A DNA stretch of 64,000 nt from a virus. The notes under the pieces were generated by a model, which made no database searches, was not told the origin of the DNA, and saw only the letters and a program-made list of their open reading frames with translations. Location: positions 1 through 64,000 of IMG/VR virus record IMGVR_UViG_3300009130_000014; one strand, 5' to 3'. Below are positions 1 to 5,121 of this stretch, piece by piece (the stretch's first letter is position 1; the number at the start of each line of letters is the position of its first letter). The translations under genes were made by a program, and so were the position numbers.

Positions 1-50
1 TGTTTTATTTCGCAAGTTGTCTTTACGTCTTTTTTATCTTTGTAAATCAT
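1..50 (-). CDS. 5' part of a small cassette gene running off the window edge (MIYKDKKDVKTTCENK...)
   Basis: ATG at 48-50 on the minus strand after an A-rich leader, just beyond the attC-like site at 70-121; frame open to base 1. Confidence 0.5.
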   Translation of the reverse strand, partial: MIYKDKKDVKTTCEIK

Positions 51-69
51 ATCTTTATTTATTAATAGT

Positions 70-121
70 AGATAACAATCTGTATAAGCGCATTAAAACG
101 CACTATACAGTGGCGTTATGT
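70..121 (+). repeat. attC-like palindromic site A (52 bp)
   Basis: AGATAAC (70-76) ... CTGTATA/TATACAG and GCG/CGC stems ... GTTATGT (115-121); the TAA stop of the neighbouring minus-strand gene lies in the core (116-118). Confidence 0.7.
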
Positions 122-301
122 GCAATTAAATAATAAGTGTCTAAGTATAGATATTTGTGCTTTTATTTCTACTTCGTTTTTATCTAAATCAGATAAAGTA
201 ACACCAATCACTTCGCCTTTACCAAATTTATCATAAAGCCTATTAACTTCTAATAATTGTTCTTCTTTAAGACTTAAAGCTTCTTTTACTTTCTTTTTCA
301 T
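116..301 (-). CDS. cassette-borne hypothetical protein, 61 aa (MKKKVKEAL...LLFNCT)
   Basis: C-terminal part of track ORF 116..433; ATG at 299-301 follows an A-rich leader, and the upstream extension is just translated palindrome. Confidence 0.7.
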   Translation of the reverse strand: MKKKVKEALSLKEEQLLEVNRLYDKFGKGEVIGVTLSDLDKNEVEIKAQISILRHLLFNCT

Positions 302-320
302 ATTTTTTTGTTTAAAAAGA

Positions 321-385
321 GCATAACAACGTGTCATACTCCATATTCCGCTTTGCTCCATACAGAGCATACACAAGAGTTGTAT
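321..385 (+). repeat. attC-like palindromic site B (65 bp)
   Basis: GCATAAC (321-327), arm GTGTCATACTCCATAT / ATACAGAGCATACAC with one extra C (extrahelical G on the bottom strand; mismatches become G-T pairs there), GTTGTAT (379-385). Confidence 0.75.
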
Positions 386-401
386 GCAATTAAAAAAAGA
401 C

Positions 402-615
402 ATACAACATTGTATAAAAAAGAATACGCTCATTCAGTTAGTGCTTTATACAAAAACATTATTTCTAATGTAACGTCCTTTTCACATTTCTTACACCTAA
501 AGTTAGCTCTATCCTTTCTGTACCATTTAGCCTTACAGCATAATGTTTTGGCTTCGGCAATTTTTTTGTCTATTTCATCCATTCGCTTTATTCTTTTTAT
601 ACGTTACCGTTATGT
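402..615 (+). repeat. long attC-like site C (214 bp) with a coding loop
   Basis: ATACAAC (402-408), arm GTATAAAAAAGAATA (412-426) / TATTCTTTTTATAC (589-602) with one extra A, GTTATGT (609-615). Confidence 0.65.
430..582 (-). CDS. 50-aa Cys-rich (CC...CxxC) putative zinc-binding protein inside the loop of site C
   Basis: Hand translation: MDEIDKKIAEAKTLCCKAKWYRKDRANFRCKKCEKDVTLEIMFLYKALTE*; below the ORF-track cutoff; fills the loop almost exactly. Confidence 0.6.
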   Translation of the reverse strand: MDEIDKKIAEAKTLCCKAKWYRKDRANFRCKKCEKDVTLEIMFLYKALTE

Positions 616-783
616 GCAATTAGCTTTTAGCCAATCTCCACGCTCTTTTATTTTTTTGTCTATTTCTGCTATTTCTTCTGGATACCATTTTCGGTCTACC
701 ATTTCCTTAATTTGTATATCTGCCTTAGCTTTTATTAGGTCTTGGAAAACCTTATCTTTTAATGTAGCTTTTTTGTAATTCAT
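610..783 (-). CDS. cassette-borne hypothetical protein, 57 aa
   Basis: Hand translation: MNYKKATLKDKVFQDLIKAKADIQIKEMVDRKWYPEEIAEIDKKIKERGDWLKANCT*; ends NCT* in the core site, as the 116..301 gene does. Confidence 0.7.
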   Translation of the reverse strand: MNYKKATLKDKVFQDLIKAKADIQIKEMVDRKWYPEEIAEIDKKIKERGDWLKANCT

Positions 784-813
784 AGTTAACTCATTTTACA
801 CAAGCGTTAGCAA
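784..813 (+). repeat. partial attC-like site D (right arm only)
   Basis: TTTTACACAAGC-GTTAGCAA (core 806-813); no convincing left arm found. Confidence 0.45.
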
Positions 814-1060
814 CATTACAATCTTCAATGTTTGGTAATGTTATAAAACCTCCTTTGTAGTCAAGTATCAAAGTTTCTTCATCATCATCATACTTTAATT
901 TACCTTTCACTTTACCTGTAGGGTGATTGTACTCTATTTCAATATCAGATAAAGAACGTTTGCTAACAATATGTAAATTCAAAAGCTCTTGTTTTAGCCA
1001 TTCGATTTCACTTTCCTTTAGGTTTGTATGTCTTAATAAGTCTTCTATTTCTTTTTCCAT
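791..1060 (-). CDS. cassette-borne hypothetical protein, ~89 aa, starting inside site E
   Basis: Track ORF 791..1081 with first ATG at 1058-1060; LLNLHIVSKR is the translated left arm of site E and NVANA the translated core of site D. Confidence 0.7.
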   Translation of the reverse strand: MEKEIEDLLRHTNLKESEIEWLKQELLNLHIVSKRSLSDIEIEYNHPTGKVKGKLKYDDDEETLILDYKGGFITLPNIEDCNVANACVK

Positions 1061-1089
1061 CGCTTCAAAATTTACATTCAACGTTATAA
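961..1089 (+). repeat. attC-like site E (129 bp) with a coding loop
   Basis: TGCTAAC (961-967), ATGTAAATT (971-979) / AATTTACAT (1069-1077), GTTATAA (1083-1089). Confidence 0.65.
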
Positions 1090-1097
1090 AGAATTAA

Positions 1098-1451
1098 CTA
1101 TCTACTAAACCTTACTTTTGAAATCTTGTGTTTTCTTTTCATAAATTCAGTTATAACCTTCTTTTGGTTTTTATCAAAATAATAATTTTTAACATCAACA
1201 AAAGCAGTGTTAATTATAAAAAAAGGCTCTGTTTCTGCTTGTGAAAAACCATACATATTATTAACCTCTTTTACTTCTTTTACTTCTACATTTAGAGTGT
1301 TTATTAATCCATTATATAAATCGTCATCTTCAACAACACAAGAATCAACTAACCAATTATAGTATTCTTTATTTTTTTCTAAATCACTTTCTATACTAGA
1401 TATTCTTTTTCTTATTAATTGTATTTCTTTTATTTTTATTATTTCGCTCAT
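1098..1451 (-). CDS. cassette-borne hypothetical protein, 117 aa
   Basis: ORF track; flanked by complementary cores GTTATAAA (1083-1090) and TTTATAAC (1462-1469). Confidence 0.75.
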   Translation of the reverse strand: MSEIIKIKEIQLIRKRISSIESDLEKNKEYYNWLVDSCVVEDDDLYNGLINTLNVEVKEVKEVNNMYGFSQAETEPFFIINTAFVDVKNYYFDKNQKKVITEFMKRKHKISKVRFSR

Positions 1452-1461
1452 AATATTAAAA

Positions 1462-1469
1462 TTTATAAC
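1462..1469 (+). repeat. terminal inverse-core half site of the cassette array
   Basis: TTTATAAC is the exact complement of GTTATAAA at 1083; no matching right arm downstream. Confidence 0.45.
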
Positions 1470-1542
1470 ATGGTAAGAGTATTAAAAAGAGCCTTTTATA
1501 ATGACTTGCTCAGGTCTACCCTACACATTATGCTTGTAAGGG

Positions 1543-1695
1543 TTAGTTTTTATGTATAAATAGATAAATATTAATTGCCATGTAAGATGATACACTACAT
1601 AATAAATGAACTATTGTTATAGGTTCATTATAATGATATGATGAATAATCTATGGTAATTAATAATATTAATATACATGTTAAAATATATTTCAT
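1543..1695 (-). CDS. small hydrophobic (membrane) protein, 50 aa
   Basis: Hand translation: MKYILTCILILLITIDYSSYHYNEPITIVHLLCSVSSYMAINIYLFIHKN*; A-rich leader. Confidence 0.4.
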   Translation of the reverse strand: MKYILTCILILLITIDYSSYHYNEPITIVHLLCSVSSYMAINIYLFIHKN

Positions 1696-1720
1696 GTTGT
1701 AAGGTTTTTGTTAATAATAT

Positions 1721-1752
1721 AAAAAAAGAAGCTACTATACTTCACTTCTTTT
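1721..1752 (-). terminator. possible weak intrinsic terminator
   Basis: Minus strand AGAAGT...GCTTCT stem followed by a T run, downstream of 1774..2541. Confidence 0.35.
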
Positions 1753-1773
1753 AATCAACATAATGTGTTTGTT

Positions 1774-2541
1774 TTATACTTCGTCTAAGAAATCATAAAG
1801 ATCTCCGTAGATAAGTTGACCGTTATAGTTCATATTATTCTCATTTAGTTTACTTATGTATTTATTATATACCTTAGATGCTGCATTTTTAATATCATCT
1901 GAAGATATACGAGCTTTATTACTAAGCTTACCTCTTAAGTAAGCCAATTCTACCATATTAATGATATCCTTTTCAGTTATATTATCAGGTAATTTTTTTA
2001 AGTTTTTCATAGTTATATTATTCTTTCTACTTTCATATCTTTCAATCCTACCACATTTCTGAATATAAGGCTCGGGCTCAACCCACACAACCTCGTTGTT
2101 TTGGAGTTTTGGAAACCAAATATCAGCAGGAAATCCAGGCCCAATTTCTTCATACTCCAACTCAACCTCTTCAGGCTGATGCCTAACATAGTATTCTATG
2201 AGTGATTTAGGGATTTGAGGTATTTTGTTCTGTACTTCATTACCTCTCATAACTCTTTGCATTCCAGCATGAAGCTTAGGATCAGTTGTAGCTATGATTT
2301 TATGATATTTTAAGTCACTACAATCAGAACTTCCTTTTACCATGCTTTCTTGTTTCTCTCTCCACTTTTTTGTATTATGTATTGGATAAGAGTAAAATGC
2401 AGACATAAACCAATCACCCTCTTTTATCTCATCATCTGAGAGTATGTAGAGGTATTTAAGGCTATCATATTTACCAGAAGTTAATTTAACTCCTGTTTTA
2501 TCCTCAGTAGGCAACATTACTATTTTATGTTTCTTTTTCAT
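1774..2541 (-). CDS. hypothetical early protein, 255 aa
   Basis: ORF track; overlaps the adjacent gene in a coupled operon. Confidence 0.8.
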   Translation of the reverse strand: MKKKHKIVMLPTEDKTGVKLTSGKYDSLKYLYILSDDEIKEGDWFMSAFYSYPIHNTKKWREKQESMVKGSSDCSDLKYHKIIATTDPKLHAGMQRVMRGNEVQNKIPQIPKSLIEYYVRHQPEEVELEYEEIGPGFPADIWFPKLQNNEVVWVEPEPYIQKCGRIERYESRKNNITMKNLKKLPDNITEKDIINMVELAYLRGKLSNKARISSDDIKNAASKVYNKYISKLNENNMNYNGQLIYGDLYDFLDEV

Positions 2542-2812
2542 ACTTAATTAGTTTAGTGTTAGACCAAGCAGTTTCTCTAGTTGGCATAGTTCTTTCTATT
2601 GTTATTTTAGGCTTATCTCTTCTTAATGAGTCAACAAGATTTTGTATTCCATCTTTAGATATATCATCTATAGAAGGCATAGAAGAAGGTGTTATTATAG
2701 TTGAGTCTAGATCAAGAGTCGCTAACATACTTTGAATCATTTTAATAATAGCATTGGCTCCTGTATTACTAGGAGCTAACACTTCTATTTGTATTCTATT
2801 GTTCTTTTTCAT
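2525..2812 (-). CDS. hypothetical protein, 95 aa
   Basis: ORF track; overlaps both neighbours. Confidence 0.7.
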   Translation of the reverse strand: MKKNNRIQIEVLAPSNTGANAIIKMIQSMLATLDLDSTIITPSSMPSIDDISKDGIQNLVDSLRRDKPKITIERTMPTRETAWSNTKLIKYEKET

Positions 2813-3308
2813 TATTAATCATTTTTAATGCTTTTAATAATCCAGCTTCAAGAGCCTGTTCGTAGGTGTCCCACCAACTCATAATGGAAAAAGAATCTTT
2901 CTTTTCATTAAAATCCCAAGAATCCTTCTTTCTTCCTTTTTCACAATTAGTGGTTATATCCCATATGTAGGCGTATTCAGAGTCGTCTATACAAGTGTAA
3001 TGAATACATAGCTTAATCTCATGAACCTCTCTCAACCATCTTTGTAGTAATGATTGGGTTGTAACTGTATAAGCCTCAAAATACTTAGGGTTATTTTGAC
3101 AACCAAAACATCCTCCACCATTTTTAGTAAATACCAAGTCTTTCTTATTCCAGTTTTCTTTACTAGCTAAATCATATCCATCATAACCATTAGGCTCGTC
3201 TTCATTTTTATGAAATTTATCACCAATGTATGCTGTATAAGTAGGAATATCAAATCCCTTCTCCTTAGCTAACTTAGCTGTTTCAAATGATATTAGTTCT
3301 TCTTTCAT
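2796..3308 (-). CDS. hypothetical phage protein, 170 aa (ISFETAKLAKEKGF...TQSLLQRWLRE...TYEQALEAGL type)
   Basis: ORF track; motif pattern recalled from Bacteroidota phage hypothetical proteins. Confidence 0.8.
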   Translation of the reverse strand: MKEELISFETAKLAKEKGFDIPTYTAYIGDKFHKNEDEPNGYDGYDLASKENWNKKDLVFTKNGGGCFGCQNNPKYFEAYTVTTQSLLQRWLREVHEIKLCIHYTCIDDSEYAYIWDITTNCEKGRKKDSWDFNEKKDSFSIMSWWDTYEQALEAGLLKALKMINNEKEQ

Positions 3309-3488
3309 TTTAGTTTTGTTTAATGTTTAATAGATTACAGTTTAGTAAGGTATCAAAGGTTTCTCACACCTTATCAACCTTACTAATTAACTGGATACAA
3401 GGCCCTTTGGCATATTATAACTACTTATTGAGAAGTAAGTAATTAAGCCCTAACATCGTAACCTTAGTATCATATGCATCCGCCTTCG

Positions 3489-3571
3489 TAACCCAGACAT
3501 GAATCGAACATGTGACACACGTTCTGCCTTTCGACAGTCATTACGCTGCTCTACCACTGAGCTACTGGGTT
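3489..3571 (-). tRNA. tRNA-like RNA with an aberrant anticodon arm (no canonical 7-nt loop)
   Basis: Minus strand AACCCAG-TA-GCTC AGTGGTA GAGC-A-GCGT AATGA CTGTC GAAA GGCAG A ACGT-GTGTC-ACATG TTCGATT CATGT-CTGGGTT-A; perfect acceptor, D and T arms; CCA not encoded. Confidence 0.8.
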
Positions 3572-3745
3572 ATGGGCTAGGTCTTTTAAAGAGTTCCCAA
3601 CCTTTTCTCCACTAGTCTTTCCGAGTAGTCAAGAGATAACTTCCCTAGTGCCTCTTACACTGTATCCCTACTAACTAGTATTCGGAATATACACAATTTG
3701 AGCTTCATTGATAGGCTTGTGTGGAATTTGCAAAGAGTTTAATTG

Positions 3746-3997
3746 TCCCCAACAAGGTTGTAATCCTTGTAACCATACACTAAGGCACATGTATTCATTT
3801 ATACACACTTTATCTTTATCTTCGATGTTATTATACAATATGGGCATTTACGCTTGACAGTATAATAACACTCCTTAGTGTATAGTTAGTTATTAAAGCC
3901 TCTAACGTTTTAGACAATACTGAATATAATTTAATCAGCGTAAATCACTTATGCAAGCAGCTCGTTAGTGGCGATAATCCTACAATTGGATTAGGGA
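3746..3997 (-). ncRNA. putative ~250-nt structured RNA
   Basis: Nested inverted repeats 3771-3785/3873-3887 (15 bp) and 3826-3836/3860-3870 (11 bp), hairpins 3753-3769 and 3975-3993, closing helix 3746-3752/3991-3997; mismatches are G-U pairs only on the minus strand. Confidence 0.5.
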
Positions 3998-4126
3998 AAT
4001 ATTTTATATTAAGGTTTTACAAGGTTATAATAGATTGTTAATTAAGGTGAAGGTGAAGTAGGATAAAATGAATAAAAAGCTATATTAGTTATGACTTAAT
4101 AAAACTTGATGATGAAGGAGACTCTC

Positions 4127-4169
4127 GAAAAGAAGGGAAGGAGTAGTGAATACTACTCCTTAACTCCCT
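4127..4169 (-). terminator. intrinsic terminator or stable hairpin after 4175..4444
   Basis: Perfect 10-bp stem AAGGAGTAGT (4138-4147) / ACTACTCCTT (4152-4161), extendable, followed on the minus strand by CCCTTCTTTT. Confidence 0.6.
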
Positions 4170-4174
4170 GAGAA

Positions 4175-4444
4175 TCAACCCTTATAGCTTACTAACCACT
4201 TATTAGTGTAAGTATTAACTACTCCGGTATCTTGATCTACTACTTCCTTTTCGGATTCGCGTATAACCCATTGCTTAGGGTTAAAGTTAGCTAATAGTTC
4301 TTCTGCAATAGGCTCTGGTGTTTCAATAGAGAAGTAATCTCTAACTGTTACATTTCCTAATGGAGTAGATTCTACAGCATTGTACTCAATAGTAGATAAG
4401 ATAGTGTTTCTTTCAGTTTCGAATGTTCTTGTGATCTTTGTCAT
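4175..4444 (-). CDS. hypothetical protein, first gene of the leftward unit, 89 aa
   Basis: ORF track; followed by a terminator hairpin. Confidence 0.75.
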   Translation of the reverse strand: MTKITRTFETERNTILSTIEYNAVESTPLGNVTVRDYFSIETPEPIAEELLANFNPKQWVIRESEKEVVDQDTGVVNTYTNKWLVSYKG

Positions 4445-4926
4445 AATTATATTGTATAGGTTTAAGAGGGGTATACCACAACTCCTCAGTATCTAGGGGG
4501 AGGTTTGAATAGGGTGCACACCGATTTTAATCACGCATAAAATTTTTCAAAAAATTAATAATGAAAATTAGGGGGGGGATAATATAAACCACACCCATGT
4601 TTTTAAAAAGGATAATATAAGATCATATATAAATGTTATAATTATTATCACGGGATAAGTGAATAATAATTAATATTATAAAATAATAAAGTTAACCATA
4701 GATAATATAAGAAGGGATAGTAAATAAGATATGGGTGAAATCTAGCTTTACACTATCAAAAACAAAGATTTTAAGGTATTTTCCCTTTCCTCTATATAAT
4801 CACACCGAGTATATAATATACTCACACCGAGTATAAAAGTTATTCGTATGATGAAATATTTACACCAAAAGGTGTAAAGTTTATAATTTTTTTATATATT
4901 AGCATATAAATCAAAAACAATAAATT
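4445..4926. promoter_or_regulatory. divergent control region (strand switch) with ACACC repeats and hairpins
   Basis: Direct repeat TCACACCGAGTATA at 4800-4813 and 4822-4835; palindrome TTTACACC-AAAA-GGTGTAAA at 4859-4878; TATATTAG at 4895-4902 resembles the Bacteroidota -7 box TAnnTTTG. Confidence 0.6.
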
Positions 4927-5121
4927 ATGAATGTGCAAACATTGAAGGCTATCTTAAATAAGAATGTAAGTGGCCAAGCAGGAGTAAAAATCATATTTAA
5001 AAACAAAGAATATGATTTATTAAGTGTAGTTAAAGGAGCTGAATCTATCGGTATTGTAGTTAATACTGGAGAAATTGAAGAACCTGAAGTAAAAGTAAAA
5101 ACAGAAGAAGGAGATGAGTAA
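4927..5121 (+). CDS. hypothetical protein, 64 aa
   Basis: ORF track; first gene of the rightward operon. Confidence 0.7.
   Translation: MNVQTLKAILNKNVSGQAGVKIIFKNKEYDLLSVVKGAESIGIVVNTGEIEEPEVKVKTEEGDE

What the first reader, a model, noticed from the sequence alone, without database searches (positions are those of the whole stretch)
791..1089. Protein translated through the recombination site: loop-encoded N-terminus fused to cassette body
Seen: the ORF starts at ATG 1060 inside the loop of site E and reads through the left arm and core (LLNLHIVSKR). It continues across the cassette body 813-960 and over the next core (NVANA), and stops at 791 in the neighbouring unit. Inference: the site is dual-coding. 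Its stop codon depends on the neighbouring cassette, and exchange at cores could create new N-/C-terminal module combinations, giving combinatorial small proteins.
Basis: partly seen in the sequence, partly recalled or inferred. Interest (0 to 1): 0.72.

Follow-up and report, generated by a model that had tools for sequence, protein, structure and literature searches.

The report
Chimeric phage gene spanning cassette boundary
A small early gene of a marine crAss-like phage is built from two swappable DNA modules joined at a short inverted-repeat element that is itself translated, and related phages carry the same modules in many other combinations.

Summary
ORF 1060->791 (minus strand, 89 aa) exists as described. 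It is conserved and under purifying selection (pN/pS 0.08-0.40).

The N-terminal 33-residue two-helix module occurs on about 12 unrelated C-terminal bodies. The SH3-like body occurs behind more than 20 different N-termini. DNA homology stops within the 10-nt element GTTAGCAAAC (958-967, read as Val-Ser-Lys).

The reverse complement of that element ends the body: GTTTGCTAAC in relatives, supplying Asn-Val-Cys-stop. This copy has lost one base there, so it reads on to the stop at 791.

The bracket 5'-GTTR-N6...N6'-YAAC-3', with unit-specific complementary N6, surrounds most small genes in related marine contigs. There were 6 perfect pairs in 9.3 kb against 0.17 in shuffles. It also occurs in other phages that share a conserved spacer element.

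The spacers have their own covarying end repeats. That gives an attC-like layout, with the loop of this one encoding the N-terminus.

No tyrosine or serine recombinase was found in this genome. No tyrosine recombinase was found in two complete related genomes. The hairpin is not unusually stable.

The mosaic is shown. The exchange mechanism is inferred. The same scan had already flagged the wider array on this DNA.

The parts
791..1060 (-). 89-aa ORF (ATG 1060-1058, stop TGA 793-791). It has a two-helix N-module (residues 1-31), a translated junction (V32 S33 K34) and an SH3-like beta body (residues 35-84), followed by a 5-residue read-through tail.
   Evidence: AF2 gave pLDDT 84, with helices 2-10 and 16-34 and strands 41-83. 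pN/pS is 0.08-0.40.
968..1082 (-). Spacer or 'site' module E. Its parts are GTTGA, the arm ATGTAAATT, a loop carrying the start codon and the N-module, the arm AATTTACAT (coding N28-L29-H30) and ATT (I31).
   Evidence: The same about 125-nt unit, 92-94% identical, follows four different upstream genes and precedes three different bodies. Homology runs from 1085/1087 to 958/962.
1069..1077 (-). 5' end-repeat of the spacer (ATGTAAATT), 5 nt after the upstream YAAC and 8 nt before the ATG.
   Evidence: 9-bp inverted repeat, reached by 3 of 500 shuffles. Repeats in the same position but with different sequence occur in L002, L003 and L004.
971..979 (-). 3' end-repeat of the spacer (AATTTACAT), inside the ORF and 3 nt before the 5' arm of the body.
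958..967 (-). 5' arm of the body cassette, GTTAGCAAAC. It is read in frame as Val-Ser-Lys plus the first base of Arg, and it is the crossover zone.
   Evidence: V32 and S33 are nearly invariant in the alignment.
806..967 (-). Body cassette with no start codon of its own, bracketed by the inverted repeat. It encodes the conserved roughly 50-residue domain.
   Evidence: Homology to L002, L003 and L004 begins at 968 or earlier and ends at 805/802, with unrelated flanks on both sides.
806..814 (-). 3' arm, GTTGCTAAC, preceded by AAT (815-817). It is one base shorter than the GTTTGCTAAC found in L002-L007 and at the record's right end. The loss shifts the frame, so the product ends NVANACVK rather than NVC.
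791..805 (-). Read-through tail and stop codon, lying in the next spacer.
1083..1094 (-). 3' boundary motif (ATTCTTTATAAC) of the upstream cassette (gene 1098..1451). Its partner GTTATAAATT lies at 1469-1460, 18 nt upstream of that gene's ATG, with 8 of 10 positions paired.
609..620 (-). Another copy of the boundary motif ATK-N5-YAAC (ATTGCACATAAC). Further copies lie at 379-390 and 115-126.
   Evidence: 4 sense copies in 1-1500 against 0.71 expected, none on the antisense strand, and no enrichment in the rest of the genome.

Best explanation
ORF 1060->791 is a real chimeric early gene of a marine crAss-like phage, assembled from two portable DNA units.

Unit 1 (1082-968) is an inter-cassette spacer. 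Its two ends are complementary. Its interior supplies the start codon and a two-helix N-terminal module.

Unit 2 (967-806) is a start-less 'body' cassette bracketed by a 10-bp inverted repeat with conserved tips (GTTR...YAAC). It encodes a small SH3-like barrel.

The 5' arm is translated as Val-Ser-Lys. The 3' arm normally supplies Asn-Val-Cys-stop. In this copy a 1-nt deletion in the 3' arm lets translation run 5 codons further, into the next spacer.

Shown: across related phages both units occur in many other combinations. Homology ends at the arm. The same bracket surrounds most small genes of these arrays.

Inferred: the structured boundary elements are where units are cut and rejoined. 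I think the most likely route is recombination guided by the short shared arms, tips and conserved spacers. That could be annealing by the phage's own Sak4-like ATPase and PD-(D/E)XK exonuclease, or template switching at hairpins. This is how PeSL regulatory cassettes shuffle T4-type genomes. On this view the arms are kept complementary because a single-stranded fold (RNA or DNA) has a function of its own.

The biological outcome is a combinatorial repertoire of small early proteins. The function of the N-module is not known. The body lacks a start codon, so the module at least supplies translation initiation.
For: - Gene reality: 22 + 23 homologs, pN/pS 0.08-0.40, and a two-domain AF2 model with its pLDDT dip at the junction.
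- Mosaic: alignments A1 and A4 show identity of 90-97% over the N-module, then none. About 12 unrelated bodies follow it. The body is found behind more than 20 different N-termini.
- DNA breakpoints: N-module homology runs 1085/1087->958/962 and body homology 968->805.
- The DNA motif is independent of reading frame: AATGTTTGCTAAC lies after the stop in L006/L007 and L020, in frame as NVC-stop in L002-L004, and also at the record's right end.
- Bracket statistics: 6 perfect and 13 pairs with one mismatch or fewer in 9.3 kb, against means of 0.17 and 2.5 in 1000 shuffles, none of which reached the observed counts. A further 13 perfect pairs lie in L020-L026, against about 0.7 expected.
- Unit-specific complementary arms: 11 distinct arm pairs.
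- Five further in-ORF arms are all codon-aligned: V-I-Y, V-S-V, A-S-E, A-S-T and V-S-E.
- The motif ATK-N5-YAAC is enriched on the sense strand only: 25 against 5.5, and 4 against 0.7 in window 1-1500.
- Controls: 111 kb of distant relatives shows no enrichment.
- Identical arms surround unrelated bodies (window versus L006; L020 1041 versus 11733), which gives 10-15 nt of shared homology.
- The phage encodes AAA_24 (Sak4-like) and DUF3799/PD-(D/E)XK proteins.
- A 48-nt spacer element is near-identical across seven other viral contigs and is bounded exactly by YAAC and GTTR.
Against: - Ordinary homologous recombination does not explain why arms are inverted repeats with conserved GTTR/YAAC tips and unit-specific, compensating interiors. 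A separate selective reason for pairing has to be assumed, and none was shown.
- Where homology ends marks the limits of a module, not necessarily the place of strand exchange.
- No promoter or terminator function was found for the motif. Sigma-70-like sites are not enriched and there are no intrinsic terminators. The motif does not resemble the phi14:2 P070 middle promoter.
- Only about 15 DNA loci were available. DNA for most of the 45 proteins could not be fetched.
- Within this genome itself the bracket is rare.
Confidence: 0.5

Rival explanations
1. This is an integron-like system. The spacers are attC-type sites (R''-spacer-L''-loop-L'-spacer-R') folded as single strands and recombined at G|TT by a tyrosine recombinase supplied by the host or by an undetected gene. 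The ORF is translated through such a site.
For: - AAC and GTT triplets are conserved at every unit tip.
- Spacers carry a second, covarying inverted repeat at fixed offsets: 5-7 nt after YAAC and 2-4 nt before GTTR, in 6 of 7 cases. Two of those six fall short on their own (7 bp reached by 37 of 500 shuffles; 5 bp by 351 of 500).
- Each cassette's first 10 nt are complementary to its own 3' end. That is the signature expected if a single site in a circular intermediate is split on insertion. This is established knowledge for integron cassettes.
- All units share one orientation.
- A compact version lies at window about 130-67, with a possible extrahelical base (by eye).
- Clusters of attC sites without an integrase have been reported in virulent marine phages (PMC9892861).
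Against: - PF00589 gave no match in this 94%-complete genome or in two complete and three partial related records, and PF00239 gave none in this genome.
- The R boxes match RYYYAAC/GTTRRRY only at AAC/GTT plus one base.
- The L stem of site E is perfect, with no extrahelical base.
- The fold energy is not better than shuffles.
- The same body is followed by unrelated DNA directly after YAAC-G in four loci, so the cassette does not carry a linked downstream site.
- Breakpoints also occur at the inner edges of arms.
- The loops are coding.
- An extra conserved AATG precedes every 3' arm, which attC sites lack.
Confidence: 0.25
2. The paired arms are RNA elements of the early polycistronic transcript, such as processing or stabilising stems closing each cistron. 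Modules look exchangeable only because these short conserved signals are the sole similarity between otherwise fast-evolving neighbouring genes.
For: - The motif is strictly sense-strand specific.
- Some arm mismatches are G-T on the sense strand, for example L004, L005 and the short hairpins.
- The 5' arms sit in 5' leaders 15-45 nt before start codons, and the 3' arms sit at stop codons.
- 'Empty' units are plain hairpins with a conserved loop GTTTTAAT.
Against: - Two arm pairs have C-A mismatches on the sense strand, which would favour the other strand.
- Cleavage at an in-ORF 5' arm would sever the gene.
- Near-identical N-modules (92-94% DNA identity) next to unrelated bodies cannot arise by divergence alone and need recombination.
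- No RNA data were available.
Confidence: 0.15
3. There is no DNA-level element. This is an ordinary two-domain protein family with a conserved linker (LLNLHxVSKR) and domain shuffling through random illegitimate recombination followed by selection.
For: - The N-modules of different genes are homologous at protein level with the same length and hydrophobic pattern.
- The junction lies at a predicted domain boundary.
Against: - The motif occurs outside reading frames and in intergenic DNA.
- Its reverse complement sits at the 3' end of each body, with compensating changes.
- Whole genes with their own start codons carry the same bracket.
Confidence: 0.05

Closest known systems
Integron gene cassettes and attC sites, including clusters of attC sites without an integrase in virulent phages (Qi et al. 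2023, PMC9892861)
   Same: - A unidirectional array of small, mostly start-adjacent ORFs.
- Unit tips carry AAC and GTT.
- The layout is two-stem: outer box, short unpaired spacer, inner box, variable loop.
- The first bases of a cassette are complementary to its own 3' boundary.
- No integrase lies next to the array, as in the reported phage clusters.
   Different: - Only YAAC/GTTR are conserved, not RYYYAAC/GTTRRRY.
- The arms are 10 bp.
- The loops of the 'sites' are 87 to about 240 nt and encode N-terminal modules or whole small ORFs.
- Units break at both ends and at inner arm edges.
- A conserved AATG precedes each 3' arm.
- No attC model and no integrase assay could be run here.
PeSL mobile regulatory cassettes of T4-type phages (Arbiol et al. 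2010, PMC2839356; Comeau et al. 2014, PMC4122927)
   Same: - Short conserved structured elements flank small, non-essential, highly variable early genes in a hyperplastic region.
- Insertions, deletions and replacements between related phages begin and end at them.
- Exchange needs no dedicated recombinase.
- A conserved spacer element (331-378) is shared by several phages.
   Different: - A PeSL is a sigma-70-like promoter plus a terminator hairpin lying between ORFs. Here no promoter or terminator signal was detected.
- Here the repeats bracket each ORF as unit-specific inverted repeats.
- Here one arm lies inside the coding sequence and joins two protein modules in frame.
Invertible C-terminal segments and shufflons (phage Mu G, P1 C, plasmid R64), from my own knowledge
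   Same: A constant N-terminal part outside an inverted-repeat-flanked segment that supplies the C-terminal part.
   Different: - No invertase was found.
- The inverted interior gives a stop after 10 codons.
- Variants differ by replacement, not inversion.
T-even phage internal proteins with a shared N-terminal capsid-targeting leader on unrelated bodies, from my own knowledge
   Same: A short conserved N-terminal leader attached to many unrelated small proteins in a hyperplastic locus.
   Different: - There is no evidence for virion packaging or for a protease site.
- Here the body also swaps N-termini.
- Here the junction is a DNA-level inverted repeat.

Membership tests
Integron attC site / CALIN | Conserved R'' (RYYYAAC) and R' (GTTRRRY) boxes | tested here: inconclusive
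   AAC and GTT, plus the adjacent Y and R, are conserved in about 24 boundaries. The remaining positions do not follow RYYY/RRRY, for example TGCTAAC, GGGTAAC, GTTAGCA and GTTACCC.
Integron attC site / CALIN | Imperfect hairpin with R box, unpaired spacer, L box and variable loop, 57-141 nt long | tested here: inconclusive
   The layout and offsets recur in 6 of 7 spacers with covarying inner repeats, and site E is about 129 nt long. However, its folding energy is no better than shuffles, and several loops exceed 141 nt.
Integron attC site / CALIN | Extrahelical bases in the L box that set strand choice | tested here: not met
   The L stem of site E is a perfect 9 bp. A possible bulged T exists only in the compact hairpin at about 85-115 (by eye).
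Integron attC site / CALIN | The cassette's 5' end is complementary to its own R'' | tested here: met
   10-bp complementarity with unit-specific sequence in 11 distinct units. None of 1000 shuffles reached the observed count.
Integron attC site / CALIN | A cassette travels with its own downstream attC, with breakpoints only at G|TT of R' | tested here: not met
   The same body is followed by unrelated sequence right after YAAC-G in the window, L002, L003 and L004. The N-module spacer follows four different genes.
Integron attC site / CALIN | Integron integrase (IntI, tyrosine recombinase) present | tested here: not met
   PF00589 gave no match in G000 (94% complete) or in 5 related records, 2 of them complete. 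This is compatible only with a CALIN-type cluster that depends on a host enzyme.
Integron attC site / CALIN | Detection by attC covariance models, and recombination by IntI in vivo | not testable with these tools
   Neither IntegronFinder nor HattCI is available. Rfam gave no relevant hit in 1-5000.
PeSL regulatory cassettes | A strong sigma-70-like early promoter joined to a terminator stem-loop | tested here: not met
   9 promoter-like sites against 8.3 expected, and 0 terminator-like sites in 1-1600. The motif is unlike phi14:2 P070.
PeSL regulatory cassettes | Conserved repeats flank variable ORFs, and differences between related phages start and end at them | tested here: met
PeSL regulatory cassettes | Circular excision products (mini-circles) | not testable with these tools
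   This needs PCR or long reads. The contig data gave no informative joint in 791-1089.
Shufflon / invertible segment | A site-specific invertase and alternative ORFs on the flipped strand | tested here: not met
   No resolvase or invertase. The inverted interior stops after 10 codons.

The most novel reading that the evidence does not exclude
Abundant marine phages of different types share a previously undescribed gene-cassette system: crAss-like genomes of about 90 kb and complete 33-38 kb genomes. Every unit, whether gene, gene fragment or spacer, is closed by its own complementary arms with invariant GTTR/YAAC tips. Units move between phages by a structure-specific reaction that needs no phage integrase. 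Some boundary elements are translated, so that leader modules and start-less bodies are joined into combinatorial early proteins.
Probability: 0.35. Interest if true: 0.9.

Novelty: new variant of a known kind. Interest (0 to 1): 0.77.

Why it matters
The early regions of phages are full of orphan genes, and how these arise and spread is poorly understood. Here the boundaries follow a simple, checkable grammar: GTTR-N6...N6'-YAAC brackets, spacers with their own end repeats, and a conserved 48-nt spacer shared across phages.

One boundary is used as coding sequence to fuse a portable start-plus-leader module to portable start-less domains. If the exchange is structure- or site-specific, this would be a new route of gene flow among some of the most abundant marine viruses. 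It would also be a natural way to build small host-takeover proteins by combination.

It would further give a concrete sequence handle for finding such arrays in metagenomes and for testing the reaction in vitro.

Tried and rejected
DNA for most homologous proteins could therefore not be fetched, and the arm-complementarity prediction could be tested on only about 15 loci.
- Protein-based scans of viral contigs with the ORF or with module alignments found no relative.
- The GenBank phage collection gave no match by DNA or by protein.
- The prokaryote genome scan found nothing.
- PHROGs and Pfam gave nothing significant for the ORF or its neighbours.
- Foldseek against the PDB gave no match at E <= 0.001, only SH3/Tudor/BirA-C-like barrels at E of about 0.01-0.1. 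The ESM Atlas gave the same hint.
- Sequencing runs: no RNA holder was listed.
- Laying contigs of four DNA runs from one study gave no informative joint or loose end inside 791-1089, and the table was truncated.
- The genome-wide count of the bracket in G000 is not above shuffles. The window's own body pair is missed by that scan because of its 1-nt deletion.
- Loci of distant relatives fetched through the 170-aa neighbour gene lack the architecture. They were used as a negative control.
- Rejected readings:
  - An invertible segment.
  - A phi14:2-type middle promoter.
  - A sigma-70 promoter or intrinsic terminator.
  - A stable stand-alone hairpin for site E.
- Counting G-T against C-A mismatches, to tell RNA from antisense DNA pairing, was uninformative (3 against 2).

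Full report
**Setting**

The window is the first 64 kb of an 89.6-kb IMG/VR virus record, estimated 94% complete. The record has about 30% G+C. Its 2257-aa protein is a homolog of the virion RNA polymerase gp66 of Cellulophaga phage phi14:2, with 28% identity over 69% of its length. This is therefore a marine crAss-like phage.

The finding lies in a run of small minus-strand genes at the left end of the record. This run is continuous in direction with the replication module at the right end.

**Observation**

The ORF is as described. The ATG is at 1060 and the stop TGA is at 793-791, giving 89 aa. LLNLHIVSKR is encoded at about 990-961 and NVANA at 817-803. The protein collection holds exactly this 89-aa product (P0001).

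**Is it a gene?**

It has 22 relatives in the 90%-clustered collection and 28 hits at E <= 0.001 among the 50% representatives.

Between the window and three metagenome loci, the body shows pN/pS of 0.08, 0.33 and 0.40. The N-module shows 3-4 synonymous changes on 17 sites against 4-5 nonsynonymous changes on 82 sites.

An AlphaFold model built on 32 sequences has mean pLDDT 84. It has two helices (residues 2-10 and 16-34), then a five-strand sheet (residues 41-83). The only internal confidence dip is at residues 31-40, which is the junction.

The body resembles SH3/Tudor/BirA-C barrels only weakly. No Pfam or PHROG family matches.

The alignments split the family cleanly.

- P0002-P0015 and P0023-P0037 share the body (..EYKHPxGxxKGKLxYDDD..GGxIxLP..C.VC) behind many different N-termini of 20-70 residues.
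- P0016-P0022, P0038, P0040 and P0042-P0045 share the window's N-module at 80-97% identity, then continue with about 12 mutually unrelated C-termini.
- The only columns common to both groups are L29, V32 and S33.

The homologs are therefore not collinear.

**DNA level**

Seven marine metagenome loci were recovered.

- N-module homology to the window runs from 1085/1087 to 958 (L006, L007) or 962 (L005). The upstream genes and the downstream bodies are unrelated.
- Body homology runs from 968 or a little earlier to 805/802 (L002, L003, L004). The DNA beyond is unrelated.
- The overlap of the two homology ranges is the 10-mer GTTAGCAAAC (967-958).
- Its reverse complement, GTTTGCTAAC preceded by AAT, ends the body in L002-L004, where it is read as Asn-Val-Cys-stop.
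- The same 13-mer ends a different body in L006/L007, where it lies after the stop codon. It also ends a third, truncated ORF at the right end of this record.
- The window's own copy lacks one T (GTTGCTAAC, 814-806). That shifts the frame and explains the tail NVANACVK and the stop in the next spacer.

**A general bracket**

Anchoring on the 3' motif ATK-N5-YAAC and searching upstream gave perfectly complementary 10-mers with quite different sequences. Examples are GTTACCCACC/GGTGGGTAAC, GTTAGGGTGC/GCACCCTAAC, GTTGTGTGTA/TACACACAAC and GTTAGCGTTT/GAACGCTAAC.

In 9.3 kb of loci L002-L006 there are 6 perfect pairs and 13 pairs with one mismatch or fewer, of the form GTTR-N6...N6'-YAAC. The shuffle means are 0.17 and 2.5, and none of 1000 shuffles reached either observed count.

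The 3' motif is enriched on the sense strand only. There are 25 copies against 5.5 expected in the loci, and 4 against 0.7 in window 1-1500. It is not enriched in the rest of the genome or in 111 kb of distantly related control loci.

Two classes of unit exist.

- Whole genes, where the 5' arm lies 15-45 nt before the ATG.
- Start-less bodies, where the 5' arm is read in frame after an N-terminal module. The focal gene is one of these. Five further cases are L002 (V-I-Y), L005 (V-S-V), L004 (A-S-E), L003 (A-S-T) and L020 (V-S-E, twice).

**The spacers**

Between a YAAC and the next GTTR, the spacers that encode N-modules carry their own inverted repeat at fixed offsets. It begins 5-7 nt after YAAC and ends 2-4 nt before GTTR.

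- Window: 9 bp, reached by 3 of 500 shuffles.
- L002: 8 bp, reached by 8 of 500.
- L003: 7 bp, reached by 29 of 500.
- L004: 11 bp, reached by 0 of 500.
- L020: 7 bp and a weak 5 bp.

The 3' copy is coding (N-L-H here) and the 5' copy lies just upstream of the ATG. Their sequences differ between spacers but stay complementary.

Taken alone, however, site E folds no better than shuffled sequence.

**Spread**

Laying contigs of four seawater runs from one study showed a 10-40-fold depth spike at 320-381. An 18-mer from that element found seven more IMG/VR contigs. In them the 48-nt element is nearly identical and is bounded exactly by YAAC on one side and GTTR on the other.

Those contigs hold 13 more perfect brackets, against about 0.7 expected. 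They also hold further N-module-plus-body genes. Two of the records are complete genomes of only 33 and 38 kb, so the architecture is not confined to one phage lineage.

**Mechanism**

No tyrosine or serine recombinase was found in this genome. No tyrosine recombinase was found in five related records, two of them complete.

The genome does encode an AAA_24 (Sak4-like) protein, a DUF3799/PD-(D/E)XK nuclease and a LAGLIDADG endonuclease.

Features shared with integron cassettes:
- AAC/GTT tips.
- The two-box layout.
- Complementarity of a cassette's first bases to its own 3' boundary.

Features that do not fit the integron model:
- The rest of the box consensus does not match.
- Site E has no extrahelical bases.
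- A cassette has no linked downstream site.
- Breakpoints occur at both ends and at inner arm edges.
- The loops are coding.
- An extra conserved AATG precedes each 3' arm.

Unrelated bodies can share identical arms, as in the window versus L006 and in L020 at 1041 versus 11733. That offers 10-15 nt of homology for annealing or template switching.

The motif is not a sigma-70-type promoter, an intrinsic terminator or the phi14:2 middle promoter. Early phi14:2 transcripts have no known common motif (10.1101/2020.03.07.982082).

I therefore rank the mechanisms as follows.

1. Recombination guided by the structured boundary elements themselves, in the manner of PeSL cassettes (PMC2839356).
2. An integron-like reaction of the kind proposed for attC clusters in virulent phages (PMC9892861).
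3. A purely RNA-level role for the stems.

The mosaic and the bracket are shown. The act of exchange at the arms, the enzyme and the reason for pairing are inferred.

**Verdict**

This is an unusual variant of cassette-type modular shuffling and is worth experimental follow-up.

Noticed in passing
window 331-378 (minus sense), between YAAC at 379 and GTTGTTATGC at 330-321: A 48-nt non-coding element containing TGTATGCTCTGTATGGAGC. It is near-identical in seven other IMG/VR contigs, including two complete 33-38 kb genomes. It is always bounded by YAAC and GTTR. In seawater contigs its depth is 10-40 times that of its flanks. Its function is unknown; a regulatory cassette or a small RNA are possibilities.
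   Followed up: partly
window 430-582 (-) and L003 2994-3143: A 50-aa ORF sits inside a spacer whose ends are a 14-15-nt inverted repeat (GTATAAAAAGAATA / TATTCTTTTTTATAC). L003 has an unrelated 49-aa ORF between the same flanks, so the loop content was replaced while the arms were kept.
   Followed up: partly
window 379-408; also about 85-115; L002 about 695-725; L003 2938-2967; L006 about 365-385: 'Empty' units: short hairpins GTTG...CAAC, or other stems, with covarying stems and a conserved loop GTTTTAAT(G). The AATG that precedes every 3' arm looks like the 3' part of this loop. That suggests ORFs sit in what was once a hairpin loop.
   Followed up: partly
window 1361-1440: A second depth spike (100-390 against 0-11 in the flanks) over the first roughly 30 codons of gene 1098..1451. 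It may be another widely shared N-terminal module, or a low-complexity effect.
   Followed up: no
G000 89488-89497 (outside the window, right end of the record): A truncated ORF ending ...SINVC-stop uses the same AATGTTTGCTAAC 3' arm. Its 5' arm would lie beyond the end of the record, so the array probably continues across the record ends.
   Followed up: partly
L020 987-1208 and 11613-11894: Two unrelated bodies in one contig share identical arms (GTTAGCGAGA / TCTCGCTAAC) and both end ...YSR-stop. Arms therefore come in types that are reused by different bodies.
   Followed up: partly
window 3489-3571 (-): An Rfam tRNA match at 48 bits, E 2.4e-08.
   Followed up: no
G000 80525-81121 (-), 78826-79503 (-), 69850-70839 (-) (outside the window): A LAGLIDADG homing endonuclease gene lies next to a DnaB-like fragment. 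There is also an AAA_24 (Sak4-like) protein and a DUF3799/PD-(D/E)XK nuclease, which together could form a phage recombination module.
   Followed up: partly
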